A DNA stretch of 42,503 nucleotides, from NCBI GenBank assembly GCA_001805005.1, contig MHDO01000149.1:1-42503 (forward strand). Direction: 5' to 3'. Shown piece by piece: positions 1 to 41,480 of this stretch. Made by a program: the position numbers and the translations under genes. Origin of the DNA: Nitrospinae bacterium RIFCSPLOWO2_12_39_16 (lineage in GTDB: Bacteria; Nitrospinota; Nitrospinia; UBA9942). The notes below the pieces were generated by a model that worked only from the letters and a program-made list of their open reading frames with translations, had not been told where the DNA came from and ran no database searches. The number at the start of each line of letters is the position of its first letter. The first letter of the stretch is position 1.

Positions 1-1560
1 CCTACATCCGATGGTAAAAACATACTTTATATTTCTACGGCAGGTGGTGATCACAGCGTCTGGATTATGGATATGAATGGCGAAAATGAGAGAAGATTGA
101 CATCAGGAGGGACAGGAGATTGGTTCCCTGCGATGAATCCTGACGGCAAGGAGATTGTATTTGTAAGCACAAGACTTGGCAATGGTGATATATGGACGAT
201 AGATTCAGCAGAAAAGAGATACCACAGATTGACCTATACTGATCTGCCAGAGTTTTCCCCTGCATGGAGTCCTGATGGCTCAAGGGTTGCCTATGTAACC
301 AATCAGGGTGGAGAATTTGATGTCTGGATTATGGATAGGGATGGGAAAAATAAGAGGCGTTTGACAAAAGGGTTATCAGATAAAAATTGGGGGAACAGAT
401 TCTCGGCAATTAAGATAATGGAAACTGCAGGCTATTATCATCTCTCATGGCATCCTGATGGGACAAAGCTCCTTTTTACTGAATGGGAGACTGACACTAA
501 CACTAATCAGGAAAAGACATATATCTCTGTTCTTGAGTTTGATAAAGGAATATTGGATAAAATAGAGGTGGACAGAACACCTATTCCTGAATGGACATTA
601 ATAGGAGAAAAGGAATTAACTGTAGGTGAATGGGAGGATTTTGGGCCAGCCTTTAGTCCAGATGGCGGTTCCATTGCCTTTTCATCCAACAGGAGCGGTA
701 GCTGGGATATATGGAGTATGGAATTCAATGGAGAAAACTTAAGGCAACTTACAAAAGGGGATGATGATGAGTTGGCTCCAGTATATAGTCCCGATGGTAA
801 GGAAATAGCATTTTTGAGAAGCCAGAAGCCAGAAGCCAGAAGCCAGAAGGATGAAACAAATTTTGAAAATCTTCAATCGTCAATCGTCAATCGTCAATAT
901 TCATTGTGGATAATGAAAAGTGGCGGGAGTGGTGCTAGGCAGATTACAAAAGGTATTCCTATTATATCCTATCCTGCGTGGCATCCAAATGGTAGAAAGA
1001 TTGCCTTTGTTGTTAGAGAGGAAGATGGGACTAATATATGGAGTTATGATCTTGAAAATTCTAAAATGCAAAGGCTTATTGTTGCCATGCAGAGCGTAGT
1101 AACAAGTAAAGGCGAGCAACTTCCTTATTCCCCCTTAACAAAGAAGGGAGACGGAGGGTTATCTCTCTATCGCATTGGGTATAATCCTGCTGGTGATAAA
1201 ATCACCTTTGAATCTAATAGCTCTGGAAATATAGAGATATGGACAATGAGAGCTGATGGAACCAATCTTGCCCGTATTACAGAGGGGGATAGTCCTCATT
1301 GGAATCCTATCTGGAGTCCTGATGGGAAGTTCATAGCCTATTCAACCGAAAAGCTGGGAGAGGAGGCAGGACATCATAATTGGCGGAATTATAATATCTG
1401 GGTAGCAAATACAGAGACCCATGAAGAGAGAATAATTACTGGTGAGGAACAGACAGACTGGAATCCTGTGTGGAGTCCTGATGGTAAAAAAATTGCCTAT
1501 GTTACTAACAGGGCGGATGGCTTTAAACATTTCGGTATCTGGATGCTGTATTTGAAATGA
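1..1560 (+). CDS. PD40/TolB-like beta-propeller repeat protein, 5'-truncated by window edge (subfamily A)
   Basis: Frame 1 is open from nt 1 (PTSDGKNILYISTAGG..), so ATG 67 of the ORF track is internal. Repeated blade motifs D[IV]W[IVLM]MDxDGxNxxRLT and [FW]SPDGxxI[AV][FY]. C-terminus EEQTDWNPVWSPDGKKIAYVTNR..IWMLYLK* is shared with the next five genes. Confidence 0.85.
   Translation, partial: PTSDGKNILYISTAGGDHSVWIMDMNGENERRLTSGGTGDWFPAMNPDGKEIVFVSTRLGNGDIWTIDSAEKRYHRLTYTDLPEFSPAWSPDGSRVAYVTNQGGEFDVWIMDRDGKNKRRLTKGLSDKNWGNRFSAIKIMETAGYYHLSWHPDGTKLLFTEWETDTNTNQEKTYISVLEFDKGILDKIEVDRTPIPEWTLIGEKELTVGEWEDFGPAFSPDGGSIAFSSNRSGSWDIWSMEFNGENLRQLTKGDDDELAPVYSPDGKEIAFLRSQKPEARSQKDETNFENLQSSIVNRQYSLWIMKSGGSGARQITKGIPIISYPAWHPNGRKIAFVVREEDGTNIWSYDLENSKMQRLIVAMQSVVTSKGEQLPYSPLTKKGDGGLSLYRIGYNPAGDKITFESNSSGNIEIWTMRADGTNLARITEGDSPHWNPIWSPDGKFIAYSTEKLGEEAGHHNWRNYNIWVANTETHEERIITGEEQTDWNPVWSPDGKKIAYVTNRADGFKHFGIWMLYLK
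821..898 (+). repeat. in-frame heptamer STR pair in PD40 gene 1: (GCCAGAA)x4 821-848, (TCAATCG)x3.7 873-898
   Basis: Read directly. Translates SQKPEARSQKDETNFENLQSSIVNRQ. Confidence 0.9.
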
Positions 1561-1575
1561 AGGAGGATGATTAAA

Positions 1576-3702
1576 ATGAATAAAAAGCTAATATTAACCG
1601 CAGAGACACAGAGGCGCAGAGGAATATTTTTTGTTTTTAAGCCCATTAATGTTTTTCTCCGTGTCTCCGTGCCTCTGTGTTTTTTTCTTACATCTTGCTT
1701 CTTGTTGCCAACACTGTCATATGCACAGGAGCTTCCATATTCTGTCAGGAATATTACTGATGGAGGGCAGGTAGATTTTCATCCTGATTTTAGACCCGAT
1801 GGTAAGGAGCTCGTATTTGCATCCAGGAGTGAAATATCTAAAGACAATAAAGAGTTCTGGAATATCAGCCCCTATCATGTAAATTTATGGCTAATAGATT
1901 CTAATGGTAATAACAGGCGACCACTAACCTCTGGTAAAGTAATAGATTGTTATCCTTCCTTTACCCCTGATGGCGAGAAGATATTGTTTGTCTCAAACAG
2001 GGGAGGGCAGTGGGATATATGGTCTATAAAAACGGATGGCTCAAGCCTTACCCGTCTTACAGATAATCAGGATAAAGATTATTCTCCAAGGGCAACACAG
2101 GATGGAAAACATATTTTATTTTTCAGCACACCAACACATAGTGAAGCAGGTTATATTACAGAGAGTGTCTGGATTATGGATATGGATGGAAAAAATGCAA
2201 GGAGATTGACCTCCGGAGGCAAGGGTGATTGGTATCCATCTATGCATCCTGATGGAACAGAGATTATATTTGCGAGTATGAGACTTATCGGCGGGAGTCT
2301 CTGGACAATAGATATGGAGGGCAGAGATTACAAAAGGTTGACCTATGGGAAGGTATTGGAATTTTTCCCCAACTGGAGTCCTGACGGAACAAAAATCGCT
2401 TATATTTCAAGGAGGGAGCATGCATCCTTTGATACTGTAGGTGATACAAAAAATGACCCTCTTGAGATATGGGTTATGGATAGAGATGGGAGCAATAAAA
2501 GACAGTTAACAAAAAATATATCAGGAGGAATCTGGGATTCAAGATTTAACTTGAGAAAGCCATTAGACTTCATCAGTTATTATCATCTCTCATGGCACCC
2601 TGATGGCACAAAGCTCGCACTGACCACTTGGGAGAAGGAACAAAAGGGGAGTTACATAAGTATAATTGAATTTGATAAAGATACCCTAAATAGACTGCCT
2701 GTCTTGAATGAAGGGCCAGTTCTTCAATACACCCTGCTCGGAGAGAGGGAGCTTACTAAGGGGGAATGGGAGGATTTTGGTCCATCCTTCGGCCCTGATG
2801 GCAATGCGATAGTCTTTTCATCAAACAGAACAGGTAATTGGGATATCTGGAGTATAGGAGCGGATGGTGAAGGATTAAAACAAATAACAAATGAAACTGA
2901 TGATGATATTGCCCCTGTCTTCAGTCCTGATGGAAAGGAGATAGCATTTTTGAGGAGCCAGAAGCCAGAAGCCAGAAGCCAGAAGGATGAAACTGATTTT
3001 AAAAATCTTCAATCTTCAATCTTAAATCTTCAATATGATTTGTGGGTAATGAAGAGTGATGGGAGTGGTATGAGGAAGATTACAAAAAATATTCCTATTT
3101 TATCCTATCCTATATGGCACTCTGACGGTAAAGAGATTGCATTTGTATCAAAAGGAGATGAGGGGATTGGAATATGGAGATATGATGTTAATCGTCATAG
3201 TAGTAAGAAGGTCGCTATTATCTGGAATAGTGAACAAGAAACAGGAAGCAAGAAGCAAGAAGCAGGAAAAGGAAAATATTATCCATTTAATGAACTATTT
3301 CTTTACCGGATTGATTATAACAGGAAGGGTGATAAGCTCACATTTGAATCAAATCTATCAGGTAATGTGGAAATATGGGTAATGCATAGCGATGGAAGCA
3401 ATATGAGTAAGATTACAAGAGGCAATGAACCGCACTGGAATCCCGTTTTTAGTCCGGATGGAAAAATGATAGCTTATGCAACGGAGAAATTTGCCTCAAA
3501 TTTAGGACCTCCTTTCTGGCCTGCCTCTAATTATAATATCTGGCTGACAGATATAAATACAGGAAAAGAAGAAGCACTTACGGCTGAAGAGCAGACAGAT
3601 TGGAATCCTGCATGGAGTCCGGATGGAAAAAAAATCGCCTATGTCACTAACAGGTCAGGCGATTTTAAGCATAATAGTATATGGCTGTTGTATTTGAAAT
3701 AA
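1576..3702 (+). CDS. exported PD40/TolB-like double beta-propeller protein (subfamily A)
   Basis: AGGAGG 1561-1566 lies 9 nt before ATG 1576; ORF-track ATG 1567 abuts the SD and is less likely. Leader MNKKLILTAETQRRRG..VPLCFFLTSCFLLPTLSYA/QE has a charged then hydrophobic segment and an AxA-like site. PD40 blade motifs run throughout. Confidence 0.85.
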   Translation: MNKKLILTAETQRRRGIFFVFKPINVFLRVSVPLCFFLTSCFLLPTLSYAQELPYSVRNITDGGQVDFHPDFRPDGKELVFASRSEISKDNKEFWNISPYHVNLWLIDSNGNNRRPLTSGKVIDCYPSFTPDGEKILFVSNRGGQWDIWSIKTDGSSLTRLTDNQDKDYSPRATQDGKHILFFSTPTHSEAGYITESVWIMDMDGKNARRLTSGGKGDWYPSMHPDGTEIIFASMRLIGGSLWTIDMEGRDYKRLTYGKVLEFFPNWSPDGTKIAYISRREHASFDTVGDTKNDPLEIWVMDRDGSNKRQLTKNISGGIWDSRFNLRKPLDFISYYHLSWHPDGTKLALTTWEKEQKGSYISIIEFDKDTLNRLPVLNEGPVLQYTLLGERELTKGEWEDFGPSFGPDGNAIVFSSNRTGNWDIWSIGADGEGLKQITNETDDDIAPVFSPDGKEIAFLRSQKPEARSQKDETDFKNLQSSILNLQYDLWVMKSDGSGMRKITKNIPILSYPIWHSDGKEIAFVSKGDEGIGIWRYDVNRHSSKKVAIIWNSEQETGSKKQEAGKGKYYPFNELFLYRIDYNRKGDKLTFESNLSGNVEIWVMHSDGSNMSKITRGNEPHWNPVFSPDGKMIAYATEKFASNLGPPFWPASNYNIWLTDINTGKEEALTAEEQTDWNPAWSPDGKKIAYVTNRSGDFKHNSIWLLYLK
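1598..1707. repeat. family-2 leader palindrome (octamer arms) in PD40 gene 2
   Basis: Left arm CCGCAGAGACACAGAGGCGCAGAGG 1598-1622. Right arm TCTCCGTG TCTCCGTG CCTCTGTG 1656-1679 (the complementary octamer family). Then CTTGCTT CTTGTTG 1694-1707. Confidence 0.85.
2957..3034 (+). repeat. in-frame heptamer STR pair in PD40 gene 2: (GCCAGAA)x4 2957-2984, (AATCTTM)x4 3004-3034
   Basis: Read directly. Translates SQKPEARSQKDETDFKNLQSSILNLQ. Homologous position to 821-898. Confidence 0.9.
3234..3275 (+). repeat. in-frame heptamer STR (RCARGAA)x6 in PD40 gene 2
   Basis: ACAAGAA ACAGGAA GCAAGAA GCAAGAA GCAGGAA AAGGAAA. Translates EQETGSKKQEAGKGK. Confidence 0.85.
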
Positions 3703-3715
3703 GGGGGGATTTACC

Positions 3716-5965
3716 ATGAATAGAAAAATCAGAAGACAGAAGATAGAAGTCAGAAGTCAGACCTCTTGCCTCCGCAGGCTAAAGCCTACGGCTACTCATT
3801 GCTCATTGCTCATTGCTCATTGCTTCTTGTTACTCACACTGACACTGACACTTGCACTTAGCGATGTCTTTGCAGCATCAGAGGGAAGGCCTAATCACAT
3901 GTCGGAAGAGATATTGAAAACAAAGAAGGTTGTCGCAGTTCCCGAAGATGTTCAAGTTCCTTACACTGTCAGGAGGGTTACTGATGGCAGTTCTATTGAT
4001 TACCATCCTGAATTCAGCCCTGATGGAAAACAGATTGTGTTTATATCAAAAATAGATAATGTTGAGGCTAAGAAAAAAGGAGAGTTCTGGCACAAGACAC
4101 CTTATTATTTGAATCTATGGCTCATGGATTCGGATGGCAGGAATAAACGGCAATTAACATCCGGAGAATTTCAGGATTTTGCCCCAAAATGGACAGCAGA
4201 CGGGGAAAAGATATTTTTTGTCTCAAATCGCAGAAACGGCAGGTGGGATATATGGTCTGTAGATATAAATGGCTCAAACCTTGCCAGGATTACAGAGACT
4301 GAAGGAAATACAGGTTTATGGGAAAGGTCTCACTATCCTTTCCCTACACCTGATGGCAAAGGGATGGTTTTTATAATCTATAAAAAATCACATGGAAGTG
4401 TATGGTATAAGGATATGGAAAGCGGAAATATAAGGAGAATAACATCAGGAGGTTTTGGAGATGACTTTCCTATGGTTTCCCCTGATGGTAAAGAGATTGT
4501 CTTTAAAAGCACGAGACAGGGCAATGGAGATATATGGTCAATAGACAGCTCGGGGAAAAATTATAGGAGATTGACTTATGAGGATTATCCTGAGTTTTAT
4601 CCTGCATGGAGTCCGGATGGAACAAAGGTTTCTTATATTACAAACAAGGGAGGCGTCTTTGATGTGTGGCTCATGGATAGGGACGGCAGGCATAAAAAGA
4701 AATTGACAAAATATCTGTCAAAGGGGGCATGGGGATTAAGGTTTGATTATAATGACCTCACTGAGGCGGGATATTACCATGTTTCATGGCATCCTGATGG
4801 AACAAAGCTTGCTTTAACTACATGGGAGCCTGATAAAAAAGAGAGTTATTTGACAATGCTTGACTTTGGAAAGGATATTAATAAGGCGGCTGAGGAATTG
4901 CCCGAAGAAAAAGAAACCCTTCCTGAATATACTCTCATTGGAGAGAAAGAACTTACAGGCGGCGGAAATTATGATGATTTTGGTCCATCCTTCAGCCCTG
5001 ATGGTAAAACAATAATCTTTGCTTCCAATAGGAAGGGGAACTGGGATATCTTGAGCATAGGTGTTGATGGTGAAGGATTGCGGCAGATAACAAAAGATGC
5101 AGGTGATGAAGTTGCTCCAGTATATAGCCCTGATGGGAAGGAGATAGCATATCTTAAAGAAGCAAATCCTAAATCCGAAATCCTAAATCCTAAATATGAT
5201 ATCTGGGTAATGAATAGTAACGGGAGCGAGGCAAGGAAGGTTACGAATGGTATTGAGGTGATTTCCTATCCAGCATGGCATTCTGATGGTAAAGAGATTG
5301 CCTTTGTGGTAAAGGGAGATAGCGGACCAGAGATACGATTGCTTTCCCTTGACAAAAGGGGACAATCTCCTCAGGCGGTTGTTTCTATATGGGATACTGA
5401 AAAACCCAATCCTGTGATGTTTCCATTTACAAAGGAGGGAGAGAAAGAGGAATTTACCCCTCAGGAGATAGCAAAGATGAAGGAATTATTCCCGAATATA
5501 AAATTAGGGATGGGTGGATTAACTCCATTTACAAAGGGTGAAACGATTGATGTCCCTTATCCACTGAATGAATTTCTTTATAGAGTTGATTATAGTGCTA
5601 CAGGCGACAGAATTATATTTGAGTCTAATAAGACCGGTAATATTGATATATGGTCGGTAAGGAGGGATGGGACAGAATTGAACCGTATTACTAAAAAGGA
5701 TGGTCCTCATTTGAATCCTGTTTTCAGCCCTGATAATAAAAAGATTGCATATGCCCGCAGAAAATTAGATTTAAGCTCCTATAATGAAGTGAATTATAAT
5801 ATATGGATTGCTGATGCTGAAACAGGTGAAGAGATGCCGATTAATGGAGAGGAGCAGACAGACTGGAATCCTGCTTTCAGTCCTGATGGCAAAAAAATTG
5901 CCTATGTCACCAATCGCTCAGGGGAGTTTAAGCATTATAATATATGGATGCTGTATTTGAAATGA
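3716..5965 (+). CDS. exported PD40/TolB-like double beta-propeller protein (subfamily B)
   Basis: G-run 3703-3708 lies 7 nt before ATG 3716. Leader MNRKIRRQKIEVRSQ..HCSLLIAHCFLLLTLTLTLALSDVFA/AS. Subfamily-B signatures GEFWHKTPYYLNLWLMDSDG and LWERSHYPFPTPDGKGM. Same C-terminal ..NIWMLYLK*. Confidence 0.85.
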   Translation: MNRKIRRQKIEVRSQTSCLRRLKPTATHCSLLIAHCFLLLTLTLTLALSDVFAASEGRPNHMSEEILKTKKVVAVPEDVQVPYTVRRVTDGSSIDYHPEFSPDGKQIVFISKIDNVEAKKKGEFWHKTPYYLNLWLMDSDGRNKRQLTSGEFQDFAPKWTADGEKIFFVSNRRNGRWDIWSVDINGSNLARITETEGNTGLWERSHYPFPTPDGKGMVFIIYKKSHGSVWYKDMESGNIRRITSGGFGDDFPMVSPDGKEIVFKSTRQGNGDIWSIDSSGKNYRRLTYEDYPEFYPAWSPDGTKVSYITNKGGVFDVWLMDRDGRHKKKLTKYLSKGAWGLRFDYNDLTEAGYYHVSWHPDGTKLALTTWEPDKKESYLTMLDFGKDINKAAEELPEEKETLPEYTLIGEKELTGGGNYDDFGPSFSPDGKTIIFASNRKGNWDILSIGVDGEGLRQITKDAGDEVAPVYSPDGKEIAYLKEANPKSEILNPKYDIWVMNSNGSEARKVTNGIEVISYPAWHSDGKEIAFVVKGDSGPEIRLLSLDKRGQSPQAVVSIWDTEKPNPVMFPFTKEGEKEEFTPQEIAKMKELFPNIKLGMGGLTPFTKGETIDVPYPLNEFLYRVDYSATGDRIIFESNKTGNIDIWSVRRDGTELNRITKKDGPHLNPVFSPDNKKIAYARRKLDLSSYNEVNYNIWIADAETGEEMPINGEEQTDWNPAFSPDGKKIAYVTNRSGEFKHYNIWMLYLK
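3730..3860. repeat. family-1 leader cassette, copy in PD40 gene 3
   Basis: Purine arm CAGAAGA CAGAAGA TAGAAGT CAGAAGT 3730-3757. Core hairpin CCGCAGGC-TAAA-GCCTACGG 3772-3791. (CTCATTG)x4 3795-3822. CACTGA-type hexamers to 3860. Confidence 0.9.
5164..5195 (+). repeat. in-frame heptamer STR (AAATCCK)x4.5 in PD40 gene 3
   Basis: AAATCCT AAATCCG AAATCCT AAATCCT AAATA. Translates NPKSEILNPK. Same loop as 821-898. Confidence 0.9.
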
Positions 5966-5980
5966 GGGAGGTTGATTAAA

Positions 5981-8143: not shown

Positions 8144-8151
8144 TTAATGAT

Positions 8152-8227: not shown

Positions 8228-8245
8228 TGAAGGGGAGAATTTACT

Positions 8246-33017: not shown

Positions 33018-33020
33018 GTT

Positions 33021-33778: not shown

Positions 33779-33782
33779 AAAG

Positions 33783-33878
33783 GTGTCAGTGCAAGTGACA
33801 GTGTTTAAAAAAAATAAAAGCAGTATCATCGCGGGTGTCAGTAAAAAAGTACTTACACTGAAAACTGACACTGACACT
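33783..33878. repeat. hexamer STR palindrome at the 5' end of gspK
   Basis: GTGTCA GTGCAA GTGACA GTGTTT 33783-33806 against ACACTG AAAACT GACACT GACACT 33855-33878. Confidence 0.8.
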
Positions 33879-34886: not shown

Positions 34887-34931
34887 ATATATAGCAAAAT
34901 TAAAGTGTTTAGATTATAATATGCCAATTTT

Positions 34932-36389
34932 ATGATACTAACAAAGTCAGCATTAGGGATAAGCTTTTGGGATGATAGGGTTGACCTCCTCTACTTAAAG
35001 CGTTCTTTTGGCAAGACCACTGTGGTAAATAGTCTCTCTGTACCTTTTGTATACGGGATGAAGATGGAGGAGTTTGAAATGGGTGTATCAGACTTTGTGA
35101 AGGCAAATCGACTTCAAAGGATAATGCCCTATGTTGCCCTTCCACGAAGGGATGTTATACTTCTTAATATTGAATTACCTGTTAAAGTTGAAGAGAATTT
35201 GAGTGAAGTAATAGGTTATGAGTTGGATAATTATACACCTTTTTCCGTGGATACCGCCTATTTTGATTTTCAAAATTTGGGACATACTTTGGATGGGAGT
35301 AAAGTCAGAATACTTCTTGTTGCTATAGAAAAAAGTCGTCTCAAATATTATCATGATATCCTTAAAGGGGTTGGGCTTGAGCCTATTTCTATGGAGGTAA
35401 GCTCCACTGCCATTGCCAGAATAATTCCATCTGATAGCCTCACTGGTGGTAAGAATATCGTCCTTTACGTTGGGGCTAATATCTGCGAGCTCTCCTTTCA
35501 TAATGAAAAGAATATGGAATATTCAAGGGATTTTGATAGACCTCATCCGAAAGTTAGTTTAGGAAAGGAGCAAATTGCAGATACAATTTTAAAGGAATAC
35601 AGAAGGATATCCCCTTTAAGTGTTGGTGAACATGAAATAGGGGAAATAAAGAAGATAATTGTATTAGGAGATGGAACTTCTGATGAGGAGTTTCTAAAGA
35701 AAATTTCTGATGCTACAGGTAAGGAAGCAGTAAGGGTTGAAACTTTTAAAGATATAGATATAAAAGACAGCTCTGGTATTCAATTTCAGATGGCCGCTCT
35801 TGGCTGCGGTCTAAGAGGACTTAATGAAAATATTGCTGCAATGAATCTCCTTCCTGTGAAGGTAAATGTAGATAAGTCATCCAGAGTTCTACGACTTACA
35901 GCGATAATATTATTCATTTTTTTAGTATCTCTATGGGGGGGAGGGATTGTCTTACGAATAAAGAAGGAGACTAACACTCTAAGCCAGATTAAAGAAAAGA
36001 TAATGCTTATGGAAAGACAAGCTATAGCTCTTGAAAAACTTAAAAAAGAGGCCATTGTTATGGAAGAGCGTCTTCCTCAGCTTAATAATTTCAGTAAAAG
36101 GAGAGTGCTCTTTCTTTCTGTTCTTAAGGAGCTTACTGATGTTATTCCATCGGATACTTACCTGACCATGCTTAAATATCATGATAATGAGATAGAAATT
36201 GTTGGGCGTTCAGTATCGGCAGTTACCCTTCTCTCTCTCCTTGAGGCATCACCTGTTTTTAAAGATGTGGAATTCTCTGCTACAGTGAAAAGAAAAGAGG
36301 TGGTTGGTGGAAGGGGGTCCATCCCTTTTATTGGTGAGGGCGTATATTTAGAAAACTTTAGTATTAAAGCAAAATTAGAGAGTTTGTAA
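34932..36389 (+). CDS. gspL: T2SS assembly protein GspL-like (PilM-like cytoplasmic domain + TM + PilN-like periplasmic domain)
   Basis: N-terminal actin-like PilM pattern. TM VLRLTAIILFIFLVSLWGGGIVL. Coiled coil. C-terminal DTYLTMLKYHDNEIEIVGRSVSAVTLLSLLEASPVFKDVEF. Positioned after gspK. Confidence 0.7.
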   Translation: MILTKSALGISFWDDRVDLLYLKRSFGKTTVVNSLSVPFVYGMKMEEFEMGVSDFVKANRLQRIMPYVALPRRDVILLNIELPVKVEENLSEVIGYELDNYTPFSVDTAYFDFQNLGHTLDGSKVRILLVAIEKSRLKYYHDILKGVGLEPISMEVSSTAIARIIPSDSLTGGKNIVLYVGANICELSFHNEKNMEYSRDFDRPHPKVSLGKEQIADTILKEYRRISPLSVGEHEIGEIKKIIVLGDGTSDEEFLKKISDATGKEAVRVETFKDIDIKDSSGIQFQMAALGCGLRGLNENIAAMNLLPVKVNVDKSSRVLRLTAIILFIFLVSLWGGGIVLRIKKETNTLSQIKEKIMLMERQAIALEKLKKEAIVMEERLPQLNNFSKRRVLFLSVLKELTDVIPSDTYLTMLKYHDNEIEIVGRSVSAVTLLSLLEASPVFKDVEFSATVKRKEVVGGRGSIPFIGEGVYLENFSIKAKLESL

Positions 36390-36971
36390 GTGAAGATTAC
36401 AAAGGGAACCAAAAGAGTTATAATATACGGCGGGGTATTGACAGGCATCGTTGCCTGCTACACTTTACTCTTTGAGCCTATCATGAAATATGAGTCAAAA
36501 ATGATGAAAGATATCTCACTTAAGACAGAACTCTTAAATCGTTATAAAACTACCCTTGAGGGCAGAACTGATATTGAGGCGAGATCAAGAAGGGCAAAGA
36601 CCATAATAGAGAGGACAAAGAACCGTATCTTTTTTGCAAAAACTCATGCTCTGGCTGCAGCTCAGCTTCAGTCCATCATACAGAACAGCGCAGGAAGATA
36701 TAATGTGATGATTAAGAGTATTAACATAAAAAAAACGGAGAAGCCTGTCCAGTCAAATCTTAAAACAAGAGTTGGTGGTTATAACACGATATCCCTTCAG
36801 CTTGTCACCTATAGTAATATCAAAGGACTCATTGATTTCCTTTATGATCTTGAAACAGCTGCAAAGTTTATTAATATAAACTCAGTTACTATAAAAGGCG
36901 AAATTGTAAAAGAGGCATCAAGGCTTGATGCAATTCTTATTGTTGAGGGACTTGCTGAGGTGGAAAGCTAA
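36390..36971 (+). CDS. gspM: T2SS assembly protein GspM/PilO-like
   Basis: GTG start abuts the gspL stop. Single N-terminal TM VIIYGGVLTGIVACYTLLF, coiled coil, and C-terminal alpha/beta domain. Position after gspL. Confidence 0.6.
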   Translation: MKITKGTKRVIIYGGVLTGIVACYTLLFEPIMKYESKMMKDISLKTELLNRYKTTLEGRTDIEARSRRAKTIIERTKNRIFFAKTHALAAAQLQSIIQNSAGRYNVMIKSINIKKTEKPVQSNLKTRVGGYNTISLQLVTYSNIKGLIDFLYDLETAAKFININSVTIKGEIVKEASRLDAILIVEGLAEVES

Positions 36972-36985
36972 ACTAAACACTTTTT

Positions 36986-37666
36986 ATGAAAAAAGTCTTT
37001 ATTATAGTAAACATTTTTTTATTGTTTCTGATCTTTTTTGAGGGATGGCAGTTTTTAAAAGTATGGTCAGCTGAATCAGCCCTCTCCTTCATAAAGCAAG
37101 GGGCTGTTAGTCTTCCCGTTTTACCCACAACTGAAGGGAGGGGGAGAGGTAAATCCGATAAAAAAAATGATTCCCTGCGAGAGGGTATGGTATTATCGGA
37201 GACGAGCTTTGAAAAAGAGGGAGAGAAATTATTGCCCTTAAATGAATTTTTTGCAGGGGTTATTGAAAAAAACCTTTTTCACACACAAAGGAGAGAGGGG
37301 GCTGAGGAGATTAAGGTGGAATCGCAAACATCACCATTATCAAAGCCGAAAGCAAAACCAATTATCATGGAAGGGATTGTTATCATCGGGAATTATAAGG
37401 CTGTAATTATTAAAGATACTGTACCCCATGTCAAGGGGGGACGTCTAACAAGGAGGGTACGGATAGGTGATACCATTGAAGACCAAAAAGTCATTGCTAT
37501 AATGGAGGATAGGATTGTTGTCAAAGATGAGGAGGGTGAAAGGGTCATAAAGATGCATGACTCTGATAGACCTCTGCGACCACAAATAACCGAGAATACT
37601 GGGGGGGCTCCAGCACAGACGGTGCCATTAGAAATACCTCTACTGTCTCCACCTCCGGCATCTTAA
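36986..37666 (+). CDS. GspC/PilP-like secretin-interacting protein
   Basis: N-terminal TM VFIIVNIFLLFLIFFEGWQFL. C-terminal beta domain IIMEGIVIIGNYKAVIIKD..RVRIGDTIEDQKVIAIMEDRIVVKDEEG, typical of the GspC HR/PilP domain. Lies directly upstream of the secretin. Confidence 0.55.
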   Translation: MKKVFIIVNIFLLFLIFFEGWQFLKVWSAESALSFIKQGAVSLPVLPTTEGRGRGKSDKKNDSLREGMVLSETSFEKEGEKLLPLNEFFAGVIEKNLFHTQRREGAEEIKVESQTSPLSKPKAKPIIMEGIVIIGNYKAVIIKDTVPHVKGGRLTRRVRIGDTIEDQKVIAIMEDRIVVKDEEGERVIKMHDSDRPLRPQITENTGGAPAQTVPLEIPLLSPPPAS

Positions 37667-37695
37667 ACATAAAGAAAGGGGGAAAAATTTAATGA

Positions 37696-37782
37696 GCCAC
37701 TGAGGCACAGAGAGACAAAGTGACAGAGAGTGATTGAGTCAAAACAGAAGATTTTTCTCTGACACTATGATTCTCGGACTCC
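37696..37782. repeat. degenerate octamer palindrome in spacer before gspD
   Basis: GCCACTGAGGCACAGAGAGACAAAGTGACAGAGAGTGATTGAGTC 37696-37740 against TTCTCTGACACTATGATTCTCGGACTCC 37755-37782. Arms share the CAGAGAG/CTCTCTG-type octamer family but pair poorly. Confidence 0.5.
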
Positions 37783-37824
37783 TTAATACTAAAAGATTCT
37801 GTGGCAAATTATGATTTCTTTAAT

Positions 37825-39837
37825 ATGAACAAAAAAAAGACTACCCAATTGAATTGTACATTTTTATTTTGTATCTTGTTTCTTGTATCTTGCCTCTTGC
37901 TTTTTACTCCTGTGGAGTTTTATGCACAGGAAAAACCCTTACAATTACAGGTCAATCCTCCTCAAAAAAATATAGAAGATAAACTTGGTAAAACTTCTGC
38001 CAAAAACATAGTCCTTAATTTTGATAATGCTGATATTTATGAAATTATAACTCTCGTATGTGATTTTTTAAAAATGGATTATATTATAGACCCAAGGGTT
38101 AGGGGAATGGTAAATATTCACACCACAGGAGAGATAACGCCGGACAACCTCTTTGACATCTTTACCACGATACTCAAGGTATCAGGGGCTGCAATAATCA
38201 AGGAAGGGGATATATATCATATAGTTCCAGCTACAGAGGCAAAGGGGATGCTTCTTATACCCAGGACAGACCAGGAGATACCTCCACCTGGTGATGAGAT
38301 AATATTTCAGGTAATCCAGCTTATGTATGTTCAGGCAAAGGAATTTATTAACATTATAAGACCCTTTACAACACAAGGTGCAGTACTAACTTCCTATGAC
38401 AGGGGGAACACTATTTTACTCATTGACTTTGCGAGTAATGTGAATAAGGTGTTAGAGATAATAAAGGTTATGGATGTAAGTATTTTTAGTGGTGTAGAGA
38501 TGAAGCTCTTTCCTATGAAGGAGGCTGATGTTGAGGATATAACAAAGGAGATGGAGAAACTCTTTGCATCGCTGAATGTATCTACCAAATCCGCTATATC
38601 GGTAGGGATAAATTTTATCTCCATTCCGAGACTGAATTCTCTTTTAGTTATGACATCCATACCTCAGATTATGGGGGAGGTGGAGAGGTGGATTGAGGTG
38701 TTGGATAAAGTGGAGAGCGGGGAAGAGATAAAGACATATATCTATCAGGTGAGGAATGGCATTGCCACCGATCTTACTGATATCTTGAATGAGATATTTG
38801 GAAGGAAAGGAATGGTATCAAAAAGGGCAGATGAGCTTAAAAAAAGAGCTGAGGCAGAAAAGAAACCAGCAGGTGAGCAAAAGGAGAGGACTGTCGCAAC
38901 AGAAAGACAACCTGCAGCTTCAGGAATTGGTGACAGTGCAGTGGAATTCATACCATATTCTATTACCAATACAATAATAATCAAGGCGGCTCTAAAGGAT
39001 TATAAGATGATAAAAGAAATGCTTGATGACCTTGATATTGCTCCCCGTCAGGTAATGATAGGGGTGTTTATTGCAGAGGTATCCCTGAATGACGATACAA
39101 GATTTGGGATAGATTATGCCCTGCGGAATGGAAAATTAGGCGAAGGGATATATAGTACTGCTGTTGGGACATCACTCGGTCTCTCTAAGGCTGGCACCAT
39201 AGCAGCGGGTGGACTTACCGCATCTGTAATAAGGGACGATTTCAGTGCTACCTTTAATGCACTGGCAAGCGAAGGCAGACTTAACATTCTTGCCTCTCCA
39301 CATATTCTTGCCAGAGATGGCAAAGAAGCAAGCATCAATATAGGCGATGAAGTCCCCATCATAACAAGTAGAACTATTACTGATGTTAGAGAATCTATAG
39401 CTATTGAGAGGAGAAATACTGGTGTTTTACTTAAGGTAACGCCTCATATTAATACTACAGGGTTGGTAACATTTGACCTTACCCTTGAGCTCAGCAATGC
39501 TGCATCGGCTGTACTGGCTGGTTCAACTGATATCAGGATATTTCAGCGCAAGGCAAATAACAGTATGGTGGTGCAGGATGGACAATCTGTACTTATAGGC
39601 GGGCTTATAAACGAACAGGAAGAGGATAGTATAACTAAGGTCCCTTTCCTTGGAGATATATTTCTTATAAAACACCTCTTCAGATATAAGTCAAAGACTA
39701 AAAAGAAAAATGAGCTGATTCTTCTTATTACACCGAGGGTGATTAGAAACTCTCAAGAGGCACGGGACATTACTACTGAATTCAGTGAAATGGTCAAGGG
39801 ACTTCAGGATAAGATTAAAGGGCGTATAAAAGAGTAA
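37825..39837 (+). CDS. gspD: type II secretion outer-membrane secretin GspD
   Basis: Signal peptide MNKKKTTQLNCTFLFCILFLVSCLLLFTPVEFYA/QE (ATG 37825; ORF-track GTG 37801 is an alternative). N0-N3 modules. Secretin core ..ILASPHILARDGKEASINIGDEVPI.., VPFLGDIFLIKHLFRYKSKTKKKNELILLITPRVI. Confidence 0.9.
   Translation: MNKKKTTQLNCTFLFCILFLVSCLLLFTPVEFYAQEKPLQLQVNPPQKNIEDKLGKTSAKNIVLNFDNADIYEIITLVCDFLKMDYIIDPRVRGMVNIHTTGEITPDNLFDIFTTILKVSGAAIIKEGDIYHIVPATEAKGMLLIPRTDQEIPPPGDEIIFQVIQLMYVQAKEFINIIRPFTTQGAVLTSYDRGNTILLIDFASNVNKVLEIIKVMDVSIFSGVEMKLFPMKEADVEDITKEMEKLFASLNVSTKSAISVGINFISIPRLNSLLVMTSIPQIMGEVERWIEVLDKVESGEEIKTYIYQVRNGIATDLTDILNEIFGRKGMVSKRADELKKRAEAEKKPAGEQKERTVATERQPAASGIGDSAVEFIPYSITNTIIIKAALKDYKMIKEMLDDLDIAPRQVMIGVFIAEVSLNDDTRFGIDYALRNGKLGEGIYSTAVGTSLGLSKAGTIAAGGLTASVIRDDFSATFNALASEGRLNILASPHILARDGKEASINIGDEVPIITSRTITDVRESIAIERRNTGVLLKVTPHINTTGLVTFDLTLELSNAASAVLAGSTDIRIFQRKANNSMVVQDGQSVLIGGLINEQEEDSITKVPFLGDIFLIKHLFRYKSKTKKKNELILLITPRVIRNSQEARDITTEFSEMVKGLQDKIKGRIKE
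37867..37901 (+). repeat. heptamer STR TTTTGTA TCTTGTT TCTTGTA TCTTGCC TCTTGCT in GspD signal peptide
   Basis: Encodes FCILFLVSCLLL. Confidence 0.9.
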
Positions 39838-39845
39838 ATTTAAAA

Positions 39846-39889
39846 AGTGTCATTGTCAGTGAATAGTGTCAGTAAAAGACACTCACACT
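39846..39889. repeat. hexamer STR palindrome in spacer before gspE
   Basis: AGTGTCATTGTCAGTGAATAGTGTCAGT 39846-39873, AAAA, GACACTCACACT 39878-39889. Core stem AGTGTC 39865-39870 / GACACT 39878-39883. Confidence 0.75.
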
Positions 39890-39893
39890 TATT

Positions 39894-41480
39894 ATGCAAA
39901 TACTATATGGACGACGTGCAGAGGATGGGAAAGAGATAGCATTATCTCAGGTAAAAAAAGATTTCTGTGAGATTGAATATACAGATTTTCCTGAAACCCC
40001 ATTCATAACTGACAAAATCTCCATGAGGTTTTTGAAGAATAAACTAATCTACCTCCTCTATGTGCGTGACAATGTATTATATGTGGCCGCTTCCAATCCA
40101 GAGGACTATGATGTCCTTGATGCGATAAAAATTGCAACCGGATTTGAGGTAAAAGCTCTCAAGGCAAGGGATGATGATATCTCAAGGGCAATAGAACAAC
40201 ACTATAAGGTAGGGCAGTCCAGTGTGGATGAGATTATTGGAGATATAGCACCCCATGACCTTGATGGAGGGATAAATGATGAGGATATTGATCACTTAAG
40301 AGATATGGCATCTGAGGCACCTGTAGTGAGGCTGGTTAACCATATTATGAGTACTGCTATAGGGTGCAGGGCAAGCGATATACACATTGAGCCCTTTGAA
40401 AAGATACTAAAGGTAAGGTATAGAATAGATGACATTCTCCATGAGAGAGAGGTTCTTCCCAGATCGCTTCAGGCAGCTGTTGTATCTAGGGTTAAGATAC
40501 TTGCCAATCTTAACATCGCTGAGAGGCGGCTTCCCCAGGATGGAAAGATCAATGCCAGATTAGGAGGTAAGGATATAGATTTAAGGGTTGCCACCGTCCC
40601 TACTGTTCATGGAGAGGGGATTGTGATAAGAATACTTGATAGGGGTGGCCTTGTATTAGACTTGAGGGAACTTGGACTGATAGGAGAGAACAAAAGAAAA
40701 TTTGAGTATATGATTACAAAGCCCCATGGGATGATTCTTGTTACCGGACCTACAGGAAGCGGGAAAACTACGACACTCTATGCTGCCCTTGAAAAATTGA
40801 ATACCTCTGATAGAAAGATTATTACTATAGAAGACCCTGTAGAATACCAGCTTGAGGGCATCAATCAGATACAGGTAAAACCACAAATAGGACTAACCTT
40901 TGCTAATGGGCTGAGGAATATTGTAAGACAGGATCCTGATATTATTCTCGTTGGAGAGATAAGGGACAGGGAGACTGCTGAAATAGCTATACATGCTGCA
41001 TTAACTGGACATCTTGTTTTCAGCACACTGCACACAAATGATGCCGCAGGCGCTATAACCCGTCTTGTTGAAATGGGGCTTACCGATTATCTCCTCGCCT
41101 CTACCCTTATTGGAGTGGTAGCACAGAGATTGTTCAGGAGAATTTGTGCGAATTGCAAGAAGGCTGTTGCACCAAATGAATTGGAGATGAATGAACTTAA
41201 AGGGATTATGAGGGGAGATATTAAAGATGTAAAAATATATAAGGGTGAGGGTTGTAAAGAATGTGTATCAACAGGTTACTGGGGACGTATTGCGGCATTT
41301 GAAATATTAGTAGTAGATGACAATATAAGGGCTCTTATACTCAAAAGTCCTGGGGCAAATACAATAAAGTCTGCTGCTGTAAACAGTGGTATGACCACTC
41401 TAAAAGAGGATAGCCTTAGAATGGTTATAGATGGTACTACAACCATGGAGGAAGTGATAAGGGTAATACAAGAGGGTTGA
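39894..41480 (+). CDS. gspE: type II secretion ATPase GspE
   Basis: N-terminal T2SS-E N domain. Walker A GPTGSGKTT (40746-40772). ILVGEIRD, GHLVFSTLHTNDA. Tetracysteine CANCKK..CKEC. Confidence 0.92.
   Translation: MQILYGRRAEDGKEIALSQVKKDFCEIEYTDFPETPFITDKISMRFLKNKLIYLLYVRDNVLYVAASNPEDYDVLDAIKIATGFEVKALKARDDDISRAIEQHYKVGQSSVDEIIGDIAPHDLDGGINDEDIDHLRDMASEAPVVRLVNHIMSTAIGCRASDIHIEPFEKILKVRYRIDDILHEREVLPRSLQAAVVSRVKILANLNIAERRLPQDGKINARLGGKDIDLRVATVPTVHGEGIVIRILDRGGLVLDLRELGLIGENKRKFEYMITKPHGMILVTGPTGSGKTTTLYAALEKLNTSDRKIITIEDPVEYQLEGINQIQVKPQIGLTFANGLRNIVRQDPDIILVGEIRDRETAEIAIHAALTGHLVFSTLHTNDAAGAITRLVEMGLTDYLLASTLIGVVAQRLFRRICANCKKAVAPNELEMNELKGIMRGDIKDVKIYKGEGCKECVSTGYWGRIAAFEILVVDDNIRALILKSPGANTIKSAAVNSGMTTLKEDSLRMVIDGTTTMEEVIRVIQEG

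What the first reader, a model, noticed from the sequence alone, without database searches (positions are those of the whole stretch)
1..41480. Candidate undescribed envelope/secreted system: a complete T2SS preceded by 30 kb of co-directional exported propellers and catalytically dead FGE/rhodanese/SNase folds
Seen: apart from the decayed DUF4160/DUF2442 insert and the 5'-truncated first ORF, every + strand gene upstream of gspF (21 with visible N-termini) starts with a signal- or anchor-like leader. Junctions are overlapping or 1-100 nt, for example the ATGA overlap at 28065-28068 and the 1-nt gap at 27551/27553. No recognisable cytoplasmic enzyme, regulator or transporter interrupts the run. 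The domain inventory is almost entirely binding scaffolds: six PD40 proteins, two WD40 proteins, one unnamed propeller, TPR, six FGE-fold proteins, seven rhodanese-like domains and one SNase/OB-like protein; the one exception is a leader-bearing methyltransferase with an intact SAM-binding motif I (own finding). Each of the three 'enzyme' folds has lost hallmark catalytic residues (see separate findings). An FGE-fold gene is adjacent to a rhodanese-domain gene four times (13720/14769, 16324/17141, 17141/18076, 25275/27096). Rhodanese is also fused to WD40 once, which ties the modules together. Established: non-catalytic FGE-fold lipoproteins PorK/GldK and GldJ are structural parts of the type IX secretion/gliding apparatus. 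TolB-type PD40 propellers are periplasmic scaffolds. T2SS exports folded periplasmic proteins. Inference: these genes encode either T2SS cargo that forms a surface binding layer, or a periplasmic/outer-membrane scaffold accessory to this T2SS. I know of no described system with this composition.
Basis: partly seen in the sequence, partly recalled or inferred. Interest (0 to 1): 0.78.

Follow-up and report, generated by a model that had tools for sequence, protein, structure and literature searches.

The report
Cytochrome-linked secretion island in Nitrospinota
An uncultured groundwater Nitrospinota bacterium carries about 45 kb of same-strand genes for exported propeller, lectin-like (FGE-fold) and rhodanese-like proteins, arranged around a type II secretion system and a ten-haem cytochrome. 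The cytochrome/FGE-fold gene pairing recurs in other phyla and I found no description of it, but its function rests on gene order alone.

Summary
Junctions are overlaps or gaps of at most 102 nt. The domain inventory is as stated. All six FGE folds, all seven rhodanese domains and the SNase-like protein lack the canonical catalytic residues. GspD, GspE and GspG pass NCBIfam cut-offs for a T2SS.

The 30 kb is not one unit. It is several modules conserved to different depths.
- A core block (Rhod2x, MTase, propeller, FGE4, FGE5, TPR-FGE6, Rhod1x, SNase-like, WD40) abuts gspF in five lineages of one Nitrospinota clade.
- The PD40 array moves to the other side of the T2SS in one lineage and varies in copy number.
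- No rhodanese, WD40, SNase-like or methyltransferase partner turned up in the related modules of other phyla (one methyltransferase homologue lies by FGE genes in a Geobacter MAG).

Directly after gspE (41786 to the window end) starts an exported ten-haem cytochrome. In other phyla its homologues are followed at once by Cys-less FGE-fold genes (8 of 26 loci) and sometimes lie next to T2SS genes (3 of 26).

Best reading: a T2SS-linked cytochrome export island with FGE-fold partner proteins and clade-specific binding-protein expansions. The function is inferred, not shown.

The parts
1..1560 (+). C-terminal 520 aa of a 1193-aa exported fusion protein: N-terminal lectin-like propeller (same family as 21846-23372) plus a PD40 double propeller
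   Evidence: The ORF is open at the window start. PD40 by Pfam. Full-length fusions of 1174-1272 aa occur in relatives and in the same species.
1567..12673 (+). Five tandem PD40/TolB-like double-propeller paralogues, each with a leader: 1567-3702, 3716-5965, 5972-8143, 8246-10438, 10439-12673
   Evidence: Pfam PD40 E 1e-57 to 1e-70. Paralogous repeats spaced 2.1-2.3 kb. TolB model matched at 272 bits, below its 343 cut-off. Relatives carry only 4 copies.
12744..14763 (+). FGE1 (12744-13715) and FGE2 (13684/13720-14763): exported FGE-fold proteins without the FGE cysteine pair
   Evidence: Pfam PF03781 E 1e-50 and 1e-55. Cys pair absent. FGE1-type orthologues occur in other phyla next to the propeller and the cytochrome.
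14769..15677 (+). Rhod2x_A: exported protein with two rhodanese domains, no active-site Cys, and a conserved Cys pair in each domain
   Evidence: Pfam. Alignment.
15717..16267 (+). Strain-specific insert: a DUF4160 gene and a DUF2442 gene broken by an 11-nt deletion. Not part of the system.
   Evidence: ORFs. Pfam names on sister contigs. The 11-nt difference lies at about 16142. UBA9963 has an Uma2 gene at the same place and Ga0484001 has nothing there.
16324..18058 (+). Rhod2x_B (16324-17121) and FGE3 (17090-18058, with a His-rich insert)
   Evidence: Pfam. FGE3's best solved relative is T. denticola TvpA, E 3e-34. His-rich loop.
18076..21015 (+). Exported 14-repeat WD40 protein fused to a C-terminal double rhodanese module. 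The two parts are separate genes in sister lineages.
   Evidence: Pfam WD40. Alignment of the C-terminus with Rhod2x. A stand-alone Rhod2x of 284-307 aa occurs in L023, L030 and L046.
21000..21800 (+). Class I SAM-dependent methyltransferase with a conserved cleavable-looking leader
   Evidence: Pfam. The leader is conserved in orthologues. No NCBIfam model reaches its cut-off.
21846..23372 (+). Exported beta-propeller with no Pfam match ('UnkProp'); its fold resembles lectins and sialidases
   Evidence: AlphaFold2 pLDDT 85, pTM 0.85. Foldseek best matches are the PLL and CV39L lectins, GH145 enzymes and sialidases, E about 1e-10. 30,681 relatives among 50%-identity cluster representatives. 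Flanked by FGE genes in other phyla.
23469..27041 (+). FGE4 (23469-24311) and FGE5 (24394-25311), both with N-terminal membrane anchors, and the TPR-FGE6 lipoprotein (25275-27041, lipobox LLAGC)
   Evidence: Pfam. Cys pair absent. The lipobox is conserved in orthologues. FGE5-like and TPR-FGE6-like genes occur in Thermodesulfobacteriota-type MAGs.
27045..30248 (+). Rhod1x (27045-27551), SNase-like protein (27553-28068) and a second exported WD40 protein (28065-30248)
   Evidence: Pfam. SNase residue check. Orthologues have canonical signal peptides.
30313..41480 (+). Type II secretion system: gspF 30313, G 31539, H 31984, I 32616, J 33062, K 33783, L (PilM/N-like) 34932, M 36390, GspC-like 36986, D 37801, E 39894-41480
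   Evidence: Pfam. NCBIfam GspD, GspE and GspG score above their cut-offs. Weak GspC_delta hit.
41786..42503 (+). 5' part (239 aa, three CXXCH motifs) of an exported multihaem cytochrome c. The full-length protein is 720 aa with about ten haem motifs. Beyond the window it is followed by a 1-haem 86-aa protein and a 3-haem lipoprotein.
   Evidence: Translation. Pfam Paired_CXXCH_1. Full length seen on same-species contigs. 39% identical (E 1e-44) to the cytochrome next to the FGE-FGE-propeller module in L026.

Best explanation
The window is most of a roughly 45-kb island of extracytoplasmic proteins built around a type II secretion system and a ten-haem c-type cytochrome.

Shown.
- All products upstream of gspF carry export leaders.
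- The T2SS is a true member of that family by three equivalog models.
- A ten-haem cytochrome, a one-haem protein and a three-haem lipoprotein follow gspE.
- Cytochromes of this family are paired with Cys-less FGE-fold genes in several phyla, often with overlapping stop and start codons.
- The usual pattern there is cytochrome, then an FGE protein with a signal peptide, then an FGE lipoprotein.

Inferred.
- The T2SS moves the folded, haem-loaded cytochrome, and possibly some of the soluble propellers, across the outer membrane.
- The FGE-fold proteins (C-type-lectin-like fold, anchored to membranes by a lipid or a helix) act as non-catalytic docking or assembly partners. They would hold the cytochrome at the envelope or on its extracellular substrate.
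- The lectin-like propeller, PD40, WD40 and Cys-less rhodanese proteins are additions specific to this clade. They would be ligand-binding or scaffold proteins, tied in by two gene fusions (propeller with PD40, WD40 with rhodanese).

The likely physiological role is exchange of electrons with an extracellular or particle-bound substrate.
For: Export and secretion.
- Leaders on all 19 complete upstream genes, and canonical signal peptides or lipoboxes in orthologues.
- Conserved Cys pairs in the rhodanese domains and in the propeller, consistent with disulphides outside the cytoplasm.
- T2SS equivalog scores above cut-off.

Cytochromes.
- A cytochrome gene starts at 41786. The trio of 720, 86 and 256 aa follows gspE in four lineages of the clade.
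- In L046 and L023 a second cytochrome and NHL-propeller cluster lies directly upstream of the core block.
- In L069 and L042 the cytochrome trio is followed directly by FGE4-type genes.

Outside the clade.
- 8 of 26 cytochrome loci have an FGE gene immediately downstream, and 9 have one within 6 kb. Stop and start overlap in L081, L082, L083, L087 and L095.
- 3 of the 26 have T2SS genes within 10 kb (L070, L083, L088).
- All of these FGE partners lack the catalytic cysteines and carry signal peptides or lipoboxes.
- The propeller is flanked by FGE genes in L026, L028 and L036.

Precedents.
- The T2SS translocates the decahaem cytochromes MtrC and OmcA (PMC3279761).
- The exported rhodanese-like lipoprotein ExtH belongs to a Geobacter conduit gene cluster (PMC6148476).
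- Propeller genes sit in Desulfovibrio ferrophilus cytochrome clusters (PMC9769857).
- PorK/GldK is an FGE-fold lipoprotein of a secretion apparatus (its NCBIfam model is matched below cut-off).
Against: - Everything functional rests on gene order. There are no expression, localisation or interaction data.
- I found no outer-membrane porin of the MtrB or ExtI type.
- The cytochrome has no solved or named relative, so it could be a periplasmic reductase rather than a surface protein.
- 17 of the 26 cytochrome loci outside the clade have no FGE gene within 6 kb downstream, and several have WD40/NHL-type propellers instead.
- The loci come from about a dozen MAGs and are not independent.
- The T2SS adjacency outside the clade rests on three loci from two MAGs.
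- gspE and the cytochrome gene are separated by 305 nt, so they need not be co-transcribed.
- FGE4 and FGE5 look membrane-anchored, so they are not secreted cargo.
- The periplasmic, Cys-less FGE-fold protein PvdO is named a dehydrogenase by NCBIfam. Absence of the FGE cysteines therefore does not prove a non-catalytic role.
- An exported SAM-dependent methyltransferase has no obvious cofactor supply outside the cytoplasm.
Confidence: 0.45

Rival explanations
1. The whole 30 kb upstream of gspF is one dedicated system, either T2SS cargo forming a surface binding layer or a scaffold accessory to the T2SS, with no redox component.
For: The core block abuts gspF in five lineages. All products carry leaders. 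Two gene fusions link the modules. Folds related to lectins dominate: the propeller resembles the PLL lectin, and giant LamG-domain proteins lie upstream in relatives. FGE is a C-type-lectin-like fold (established knowledge).
Against: The PD40 array changes side and copy number. The rhodanese, WD40 and SNase-like genes are confined to one clade. Across phyla the only conserved partner of the FGE genes is the cytochrome, and mostly no T2SS is nearby. Cytochromes flank the block in every lineage of the clade that I examined.
Confidence: 0.2
2. There is no system. The region is a lineage-specific accumulation of tandemly duplicated genes for exported proteins on the leading strand, and it sits beside the T2SS and the cytochromes only through shared ancestry within a narrow clade.
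For: Synteny of the full block is seen only among close relatives (GspF at least 85% identical). The region shows paralogue expansion, rearrangement and insertion of selfish genes. The promoter and terminator scan is uninformative. The FGE domain is promiscuous and is fused to kinases, TIR and caspase domains elsewhere.
Against: Cytochrome/FGE pairs with overlapping stop and start codons occur in unrelated MAGs of 44-57% GC. The FGE-propeller-FGE module is conserved at 39-41% identity in other phyla. There are two Rosetta-stone fusions.
Confidence: 0.2
3. The FGE-fold proteins are enzymes, not scaffolds. They would be periplasmic oxidases or maturation factors of the PvdO or NirV kind, acting on the cytochrome or on a small molecule, and the rhodanese and methyltransferase proteins would handle a chalcogen or metalloid substrate.
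For: PvdO, a Cys-less periplasmic family member, is named dihydropyoverdine dehydrogenase, and it matches here at E 1e-12 to 1e-21, below cut-off. Overlapping stop and start codons with a redox protein suggest tight coupling. There are weak hits to the ExtH and ArsM models. FGE3 has a His-rich loop.
Against: No curated enzyme model reaches its cut-off. The rhodanese domains lack the catalytic Cys. The periplasm has no known source of SAM (established knowledge). The membrane anchoring resembles that of structural lipoproteins of the PorK type.
Confidence: 0.12
4. The FGE-fold proteins are variable ligand-binding proteins of a diversity-generating retroelement, or parts of an anti-phage conflict system.
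For: The best solved relative of FGE3 is the DGR variable protein TvpA (E 3e-34). Elsewhere FGE domains are fused to TIR, caspase and kinase domains.
Against: The window has no reverse transcriptase and no template/variable repeat pair. Differences between orthologues are spread along the protein rather than concentrated at the C-terminus. PADLOC gave no relevant hit. All the proteins are exported.
Confidence: 0.03

Closest known systems
Shewanella oneidensis Mtr pathway with T2SS-dependent export of the decahaem cytochromes MtrC and OmcA
   Same: A complete T2SS lies next to genes for an exported cytochrome with about ten haems. In Shewanella the T2SS translocates folded, haem-loaded cytochromes across the outer membrane (PMC3279761).
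   Different: The sequence relation is faint (an Mtrc-MtrF_II-IV match only at 'faint' level). The cytochrome has no lipobox. No MtrA/MtrB-type porin-cytochrome pair was seen. The FGE-fold, propeller and rhodanese partners have no counterpart in Mtr.
T9SS and gliding lipoproteins PorK/GldK and GldJ (non-catalytic FGE-fold structural proteins)
   Same: FGE-fold proteins without the catalytic cysteines, anchored by a lipid, and encoded with a secretion apparatus. The GldK model is matched at E 1e-15 to 1e-23.
   Different: The scores (55-82 bits) are far below the GldK cut-off of 350. No PorL, PorM, PorN or Sov genes are present. The apparatus here is a T2SS and the phylum is not Bacteroidota.
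Geobacter sulfurreducens extHIJKL conduit cluster, with the rhodanese-like lipoprotein ExtH
   Same: An exported rhodanese-family protein encoded beside multihaem cytochromes. The extracellular component varies a great deal between relatives (PMC6148476).
   Different: The ExtH model is matched only weakly (E 0.004). The domains here lack the active-site Cys. No ExtI-type porin is present.
Multihaem cytochrome plus NHL beta-propeller clusters (Desulfovibrio ferrophilus DFE_0448-0451 and DFE_0461-0465, and similar)
   Same: Propeller proteins interleaved with exported multihaem cytochromes. This is seen directly upstream of the core block in L023 and L046 and with distant homologues of the cytochrome (PMC9769857).
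   Different: In the window itself the propellers are PD40, WD40 and an unnamed lectin-like type, not NHL, and they are far more numerous.
PvdO (periplasmic FGE-fold protein of pyoverdine maturation) and TvpA (DGR variable protein, PDB 2Y3C)
   Same: Exported FGE-fold proteins lacking the copper-binding cysteine pair.
   Different: There are no pyoverdine genes and no retroelement. The scores are well below the family cut-offs.
TolB of the Tol-Pal system
   Same: A periplasmic PD40 propeller (TolB model matched at 272 bits).
   Different: The score is below the cut-off of 343. The proteins are double propellers of 710-750 aa in six tandem copies. No tolQRA or pal genes are nearby. One copy is fused to the lectin-like propeller.

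Membership tests
Type II secretion system | Secretin GspD, ATPase GspE and major pseudopilin GspG at equivalog level | tested here: met
   NCBIfam scores: GspD 428 against a cut-off of 351, GspE 637 against 630, GspG 150 against 89.
Type II secretion system | Platform and assembly proteins GspF, L, M and C, and minor pseudopilins H, I, J and K | tested here: inconclusive
   All are present by Pfam or N-terminal methylation motif but score below the NCBIfam cut-offs: GspF 402 against 424, GspK 104 against 130, GspM 57 against 60, GspH 47 against 80. L is a PilM/PilN-type fusion. GspC_delta matches at E 2e-4.
Type II secretion system | Prepilin peptidase GspO | tested here: not met
   Not encoded in the window or in the 10 kb downstream. 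It may lie elsewhere in the genome.
Formylglycine-generating enzyme (SUMF1) | FGE fold (PF03781) | tested here: met
   Six domains, E 1e-43 to 1e-62.
Formylglycine-generating enzyme (SUMF1) | Copper-binding catalytic cysteine pair (human C336 and C341) | tested here: not met
   Both positions are non-Cys in all six domains and in 17 partner proteins from other loci.
EgtB/OvoA sulfoxide synthases | N-terminal DinB-type iron-binding domain and a score above the equivalog cut-off | tested here: not met
   Only the C-terminal FGE-like part of the model matches, at 59-118 bits against a cut-off of 360. The N-termini are leaders.
Rhodanese sulfurtransferase | Rhodanese fold (PF00581) | tested here: met
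   Pfam E 1e-15 to 1e-22. Profile hits to solved rhodaneses.
Rhodanese sulfurtransferase | Catalytic Cys at the start of the active-site loop | tested here: not met
   The loop reads GEDT(K/E)S or (D/Y)(N/T)E in all seven domains. The position was assigned by comparison with the GlpE loop recalled from memory, and no solved structure aligned over the loop. Two other Cys are conserved in each domain.
Staphylococcal nuclease | Ca-binding D21, D40 and T41, general base E43, and R35 and R87 | tested here: not met
   D21, R35 and R87 are kept. D40 is N, T41 is V and E43 is G. The alignment is weak (E 0.002).
T9SS PorK/GldK ring lipoprotein | Equivalog-level match and co-occurrence with PorL, PorM and PorN | tested here: not met
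   55-82 bits against a cut-off of 350. No PorL, PorM or PorN-like genes among the ORFs.
Mtr/Pcc-type porin-cytochrome conduit | Multihaem cytochromes together with an outer-membrane porin (MtrB, ExtI or OmbB type) | tested here: inconclusive
   Cytochromes with about 10, 1 and 3 haem motifs are present. No porin was recognised in the window or in the 10 kb downstream, but I ran no dedicated beta-barrel predictor.
Diversity-generating retroelement target | Reverse transcriptase and a template repeat matching the variable 3' end | tested here: not met
   No reverse-transcriptase ORF and no near-identical repeat pair. Divergence between orthologues is not concentrated at the C-terminus.
Tol-Pal system | TolB equivalog together with tolQRA and pal | tested here: not met
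   TolB model matched at 272 bits against 343. No tolQRA or pal genes in the window.
Known anti-phage defence systems | Match to PADLOC models | tested here: not met
   Only the WD40 repeats match a generic repeat model, and the SNase-like protein gives two weak partial hits (E 1e-5 and 6e-5).

The most novel reading that the evidence does not exclude
The ten-haem cytochrome, its two or three Cys-less FGE-fold partners (one soluble, one lipid-anchored, one fused to TPR) and the adjacent T2SS would form a previously undescribed type of envelope redox apparatus. The FGE-fold lipoproteins would form the outer-membrane dock or ring for a secreted cytochrome, as PorK does in the T9SS. The propeller and rhodanese expansions would tune which extracellular substrate is bound.
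Probability: 0.25. Interest if true: 0.8.

Novelty: new variant of a known kind. Interest (0 to 1): 0.55.

Why it matters
Extracellular electron transfer is understood mainly from Shewanella and Geobacter. How most uncultured subsurface bacteria place cytochromes at the cell surface is unknown.

This locus gives a concrete and testable gene set: a T2SS, a ten-haem cytochrome family with no solved or named relative, and FGE-fold partner genes whose start overlaps the cytochrome's stop. The set recurs in Nitrospinota and in Thermodesulfobacteriota-type groundwater MAGs.

It would also give a second role, after the T9SS, to the very common bacterial FGE-fold proteins that lack the catalytic cysteines. 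NCBI currently names such proteins 'SUMF1/EgtB/PvdO family nonheme iron enzyme'.

If the link proves to be only positional, the result is still useful. It shows that the striking 30-kb array is a composite of lineage-specific expansions.

Tried and rejected
- DGR variable-protein reading of FGE2 and FGE3. TvpA is the best solved match, but the window has no template/variable repeat pair and no reverse transcriptase, and orthologue divergence is not concentrated at the C-terminus.
- Phase variation through the 7-nt repeats in the leader-coding regions. Indels against UBA9963 are about six times enriched in the repeat regions (20 of 63 gaps in 5.3% of the sequence). However, no change in repeat copy number is seen among four contigs that are 99.6-99.99% identical to the window.
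- Leaders as artefacts of ORFs extended through repeats. For most genes no alternative start codon lies between the hydrophobic stretch and the conserved domain, and orthologues have ordinary signal peptides.
- Promoter and terminator scan: counts at or below the shuffled expectation, so uninformative.
- Rfam: no RNA family in the window. tRNA scan: none.
- PADLOC: nothing relevant.
- PDB sequence search: nothing for Rhod2x_A as a single sequence or for the cytochrome profile.
- True sulfatase maturation. L026 has sulfatase genes nearby, but its FGE genes also lack the cysteines, and the window has no sulfatase.
- My first conclusion that the PD40 array is unlinked in the JACQBS MAG was wrong. 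Contig 151 ends in gspH and contig 51 starts at gspI, so the array lies downstream of the same T2SS.
- Literature searches: no paper holds FGE-sulfatase, rhodanese and WD40 together, and none holds formylglycine-generating enzyme, multiheme and gene cluster together. The two papers that mention both Nitrospinota and type II secretion looked unrelated to this locus from their titles and abstracts; I did not read them.

Full report
**Source and general features.** The window has about 39% G+C and a strong positive GC skew, and every long ORF is on the + strand. Contigs that are nearly identical to it come from groundwater metagenomes. The closest genomes are uncultured Nitrospinota MAGs: UBA9963 has 97% GspF identity, and JACQBS01 and JACRGN01 have 87%. 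The window contains no tRNA and no Rfam family.

**The observation.** Pfam confirms the inventory.
- Six PD40 proteins, two WD40 proteins and six FGE-sulfatase domains, one of them behind TPR repeats.
- Rhodanese domains in four proteins, seven domains in all. The pair at the C-terminus of the 979-aa WD40 protein is shown by alignment and by a sister contig's gene call.
- A weak SNase match, a class I methyltransferase, and one 508-aa protein with no Pfam match.

Gaps between genes are 0-102 nt or overlaps.

Every complete gene upstream of gspF has a hydrophobic N-terminal stretch (maximum 15-residue hydropathy 2.1-3.0). GspF, GspE and GspL score at most 1.25. I count 19 such genes, not 21. 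For most of them no alternative start codon lies between the leader and the conserved domain. Orthologues in sister lineages carry short canonical signal peptides, for example MRFLASCLLLLVSGTCAAES in the WD40 protein, or a conserved lipobox in TPR-FGE6. FGE4 and FGE5 look like uncleaved membrane anchors.

The DUF4160/DUF2442 insert is strain-specific. DUF2442 is broken by an 11-nt deletion relative to sister contigs. UBA9963 has an Uma2 gene at the same site, and another lineage has nothing there.

**Catalytic residues.**
- Human FGE C336 and C341 align to non-Cys residues in all six FGE domains.
- None of the seven rhodanese domains has a Cys at the active-loop position. I placed that position by comparison with the GlpE loop from memory, because no solved structure aligned across it. 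Each domain keeps two other invariant Cys, which fits a disulphide in an exported protein.
- The SNase-like protein keeps D21, R35 and R87, but D40 is N, T41 is V and E43 is G (the alignment is weak).

That does not prove a lack of activity. The periplasmic, Cys-less FGE-fold protein PvdO is named a dehydrogenase by NCBIfam.

**The T2SS.** GspD, GspE and GspG exceed the NCBIfam equivalog cut-offs. F, H, I, K and M match below cut-off. L is a PilM/PilN-type fusion. The 226-aa protein weakly matches GspC_delta. No prepilin peptidase is in the window or in the 10 kb downstream.

**The unnamed propeller.** An AlphaFold2 model (pLDDT 85, pTM 0.85) is a beta-propeller with a helical insert. Its best structural neighbours are the PLL and CV39L lectins, GH145 enzymes, sialidases and polysaccharide lyases, at about 10% sequence identity. 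A profile search finds 30,681 relatives among cluster representatives, so this is a large family that Pfam does not cover.

ORF1 of the window is the C-terminal part of a 1193-aa fusion of this propeller with a PD40 double propeller. That fusion links the two modules. The WD40-rhodanese fusion does the same for its two parts, which are separate genes in sister lineages.

**Synteny within the clade.** The block Rhod2x, MTase, propeller, FGE4, FGE5, TPR-FGE6, Rhod1x, SNase-like, WD40 lies directly upstream of gspF in five lineages. The rest is variable.
- Ga0484001 and UBA9963-type contigs have four PD40 genes where the window has six.
- In JACQBS and L046 the genes upstream of the block are multihaem cytochromes, NHL propellers and an LpoB-like lipoprotein.
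- In JACQBS the PD40 array lies 25-30 kb downstream of the T2SS. Contig 151 ends in gspH and contig 51 starts at gspI.
- Giant LamG-domain proteins precede the PD40 array.

**Synteny outside the clade.**
- The T2SS of a Nitrospinota MAG with 46% GspF identity, and those of other phyla, have unrelated neighbours.
- The double rhodanese family has only 23 relatives in the large protein collection, and they appear confined to this clade.
- Propeller homologues of 39-41% identity in other phyla are flanked by Cys-less FGE1-like, FGE5-like and TPR-FGE6-like genes, with no T2SS nearby (L026, L028, L036).
- More distant propeller homologues (25-37% identity) lose this context.

**The missed component.** At 41786, which is 305 nt after gspE, an ORF with a leader and three CXXCH motifs runs off the window. 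On same-species contigs it is 720 aa long with about ten haem motifs. It is followed by an 86-aa one-haem protein and a 256-aa three-haem lipoprotein, and then by housekeeping genes. One strain variant has a further FGE gene there. The same trio follows gspE in UBA9963, JACRGN and JACQBS. In MHDI01 it directly precedes FGE4, FGE5, TPR-FGE6 and the genes up to gspF. The cytochrome is 39% identical (E 1e-44) to the one directly upstream of the FGE-FGE-propeller module in L026.

**Testing that link.** I scanned GTDB species genomes with a profile of the cytochrome. 26 loci from outside the clade (33-52% identity) have enough downstream sequence to judge.
- 8 have a Cys-less FGE gene immediately downstream, several with overlapping stop and start codons.
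- 9 have one within 6 kb.
- 3 have T2SS genes within 10 kb.
- 2 have a propeller of the unnamed family.

The usual pattern is cytochrome, then an FGE protein with a signal peptide, then an FGE lipoprotein. The loci come from about a dozen MAGs and are not independent. Even so, FGE genes in these loci occur almost only in that position. More distant homologues of the cytochrome sit in clusters of cytochromes and NHL propellers. The cytochrome family has no solved relative by sequence.

**Literature.**
- No paper in the library combines FGE-sulfatase, rhodanese and WD40, or formylglycine-generating enzyme, multiheme and gene cluster.
- T2SS-dependent export of MtrC and OmcA is a precedent (PMC3279761).
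- So is the exported rhodanese-like lipoprotein ExtH in a Geobacter conduit cluster, whose extracellular component varies widely between relatives (PMC6148476).
- So are the NHL-propeller genes in Desulfovibrio ferrophilus cytochrome clusters (PMC9769857).

**Interpretation.**
- Shown: an island of exported proteins; a genuine T2SS; multihaem cytochromes at its end; a cytochrome/FGE gene pair conserved across phyla; a clade-specific core block fixed next to gspF; two gene fusions tying the modules together.
- Inferred: the T2SS exports the cytochrome and perhaps some of the soluble propellers; the FGE-fold proteins dock or assemble it at the envelope; the remaining families are lineage-specific binding or scaffold additions.
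- Open: whether the FGE-fold proteins are catalytic; how electrons would cross the outer membrane, since no porin was found; what an exported methyltransferase could do.

**Verdict.** The single-system reading is too broad, and it omits the cytochrome that gives the locus its most plausible function. I place the finding as a new variant of a known kind, namely T2SS-linked export of a cytochrome with other exported proteins. Its accessory families are, as far as I could find, undescribed. The function remains untested.

Noticed in passing
window, 47 arrays, e.g. 3730-3852, 10464-10580, 12769-12895, 14784-14910, 21016-21103, 27599-27654, 31563-31595: Short tandem repeats of 6-9 nt (mostly 7 nt, 3-6 copies) build the leader-coding 5' ends of 17 genes. 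A purine-rich array such as (CAGAAGY)n encodes the charged n-region ('RSQKSEV'). A pyrimidine-rich array, often partly complementary to the first, encodes the hydrophobic core ('LLASCFL', 'LTLTLT'). Indels against UBA9963 are about six times enriched there, but the copy number does not vary among near-identical strains. The arrangement resembles cyanobacterial STRR heptamers and the Neisseria Opa CTCTT coding repeats (from memory).
   Followed up: partly
window 817-898, 2956-3034, 5164-5195, 7257-7428, 9545-9631, 29292-29330: The same kind of 7-8-nt repeat array sits in frame inside each PD40 paralogue, in the same region of each gene, and inside the second WD40 gene. It adds low-complexity peptides such as 'RSQKPEARSQKDETNFENLQSS' and 'CGLRIADCGLRIADC'.
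   Followed up: no
window 41786-42503, continuing in L040 11866-15153: A family of ten-haem cytochromes with no solved or named relative. The mature N-terminus directly after the predicted cleavage site is strongly conserved across phyla (A-T-x-G-A-F-P-[FY]-T-K-H-G-G).
   Followed up: partly
window 17318-17366 (FGE3): A His-rich insert (HKAWKGGHHQHHQG) in FGE3. The MHDI01 orthologue shares it, and the UBA9963 and Ga0484001 orthologues lack it. It could be a metal-binding loop.
   Followed up: no
window 15717-16267; L044 3680-4297; L117 4506-5449: Small selfish-looking cytoplasmic genes (DUF4160/DUF2442, Uma2, DUF559) sit at the same two intergenic sites in different strains: between the two double-rhodanese genes, and upstream of the fusion gene. 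This suggests insertion hot spots or operon boundaries. The window's DUF2442 carries an 11-nt deletion.
   Followed up: partly
window 14769-15677, 16324-17121, 20200-21015, 27045-27551: Each Cys-less rhodanese domain keeps two invariant cysteines: a 'CE' at the start of the domain and one in the helix after the loop. This is probably a disulphide. The family has only 23 relatives among 5.8 billion protein clusters.
   Followed up: partly
window 21000-21800; L116 7343-8233: A SAM-dependent methyltransferase with a conserved, cleavable-looking signal peptide. A 41%-identical homologue lies beside FGE-fold genes and an 8-haem cytochrome in a Geobacter MAG.
   Followed up: no
L034 104-9133, L058 21-9458, L117 2-4429: Giant proteins of 1475 to 3145 aa with several LamG_3 (ConA-like lectin) domains and DUF2341 lie directly upstream of the PD40 array in relatives and in the window's own species. 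The island therefore extends beyond the window's left end.
   Followed up: partly
L026 917-5884, L081 10-4497, L086, L095 2322-7325: A protein of about 1500-1670 aa with no Pfam match recurs beside the cytochrome/FGE pairs in other phyla. It is absent from the window.
   Followed up: no
window 21846-23372: The propeller repeat family has more than 30,000 representatives at 50% clustering, including proteins of up to 7019 aa, yet it has no Pfam model and only a sub-threshold hit to the NCBIfam BP39L lectin model.
   Followed up: partly
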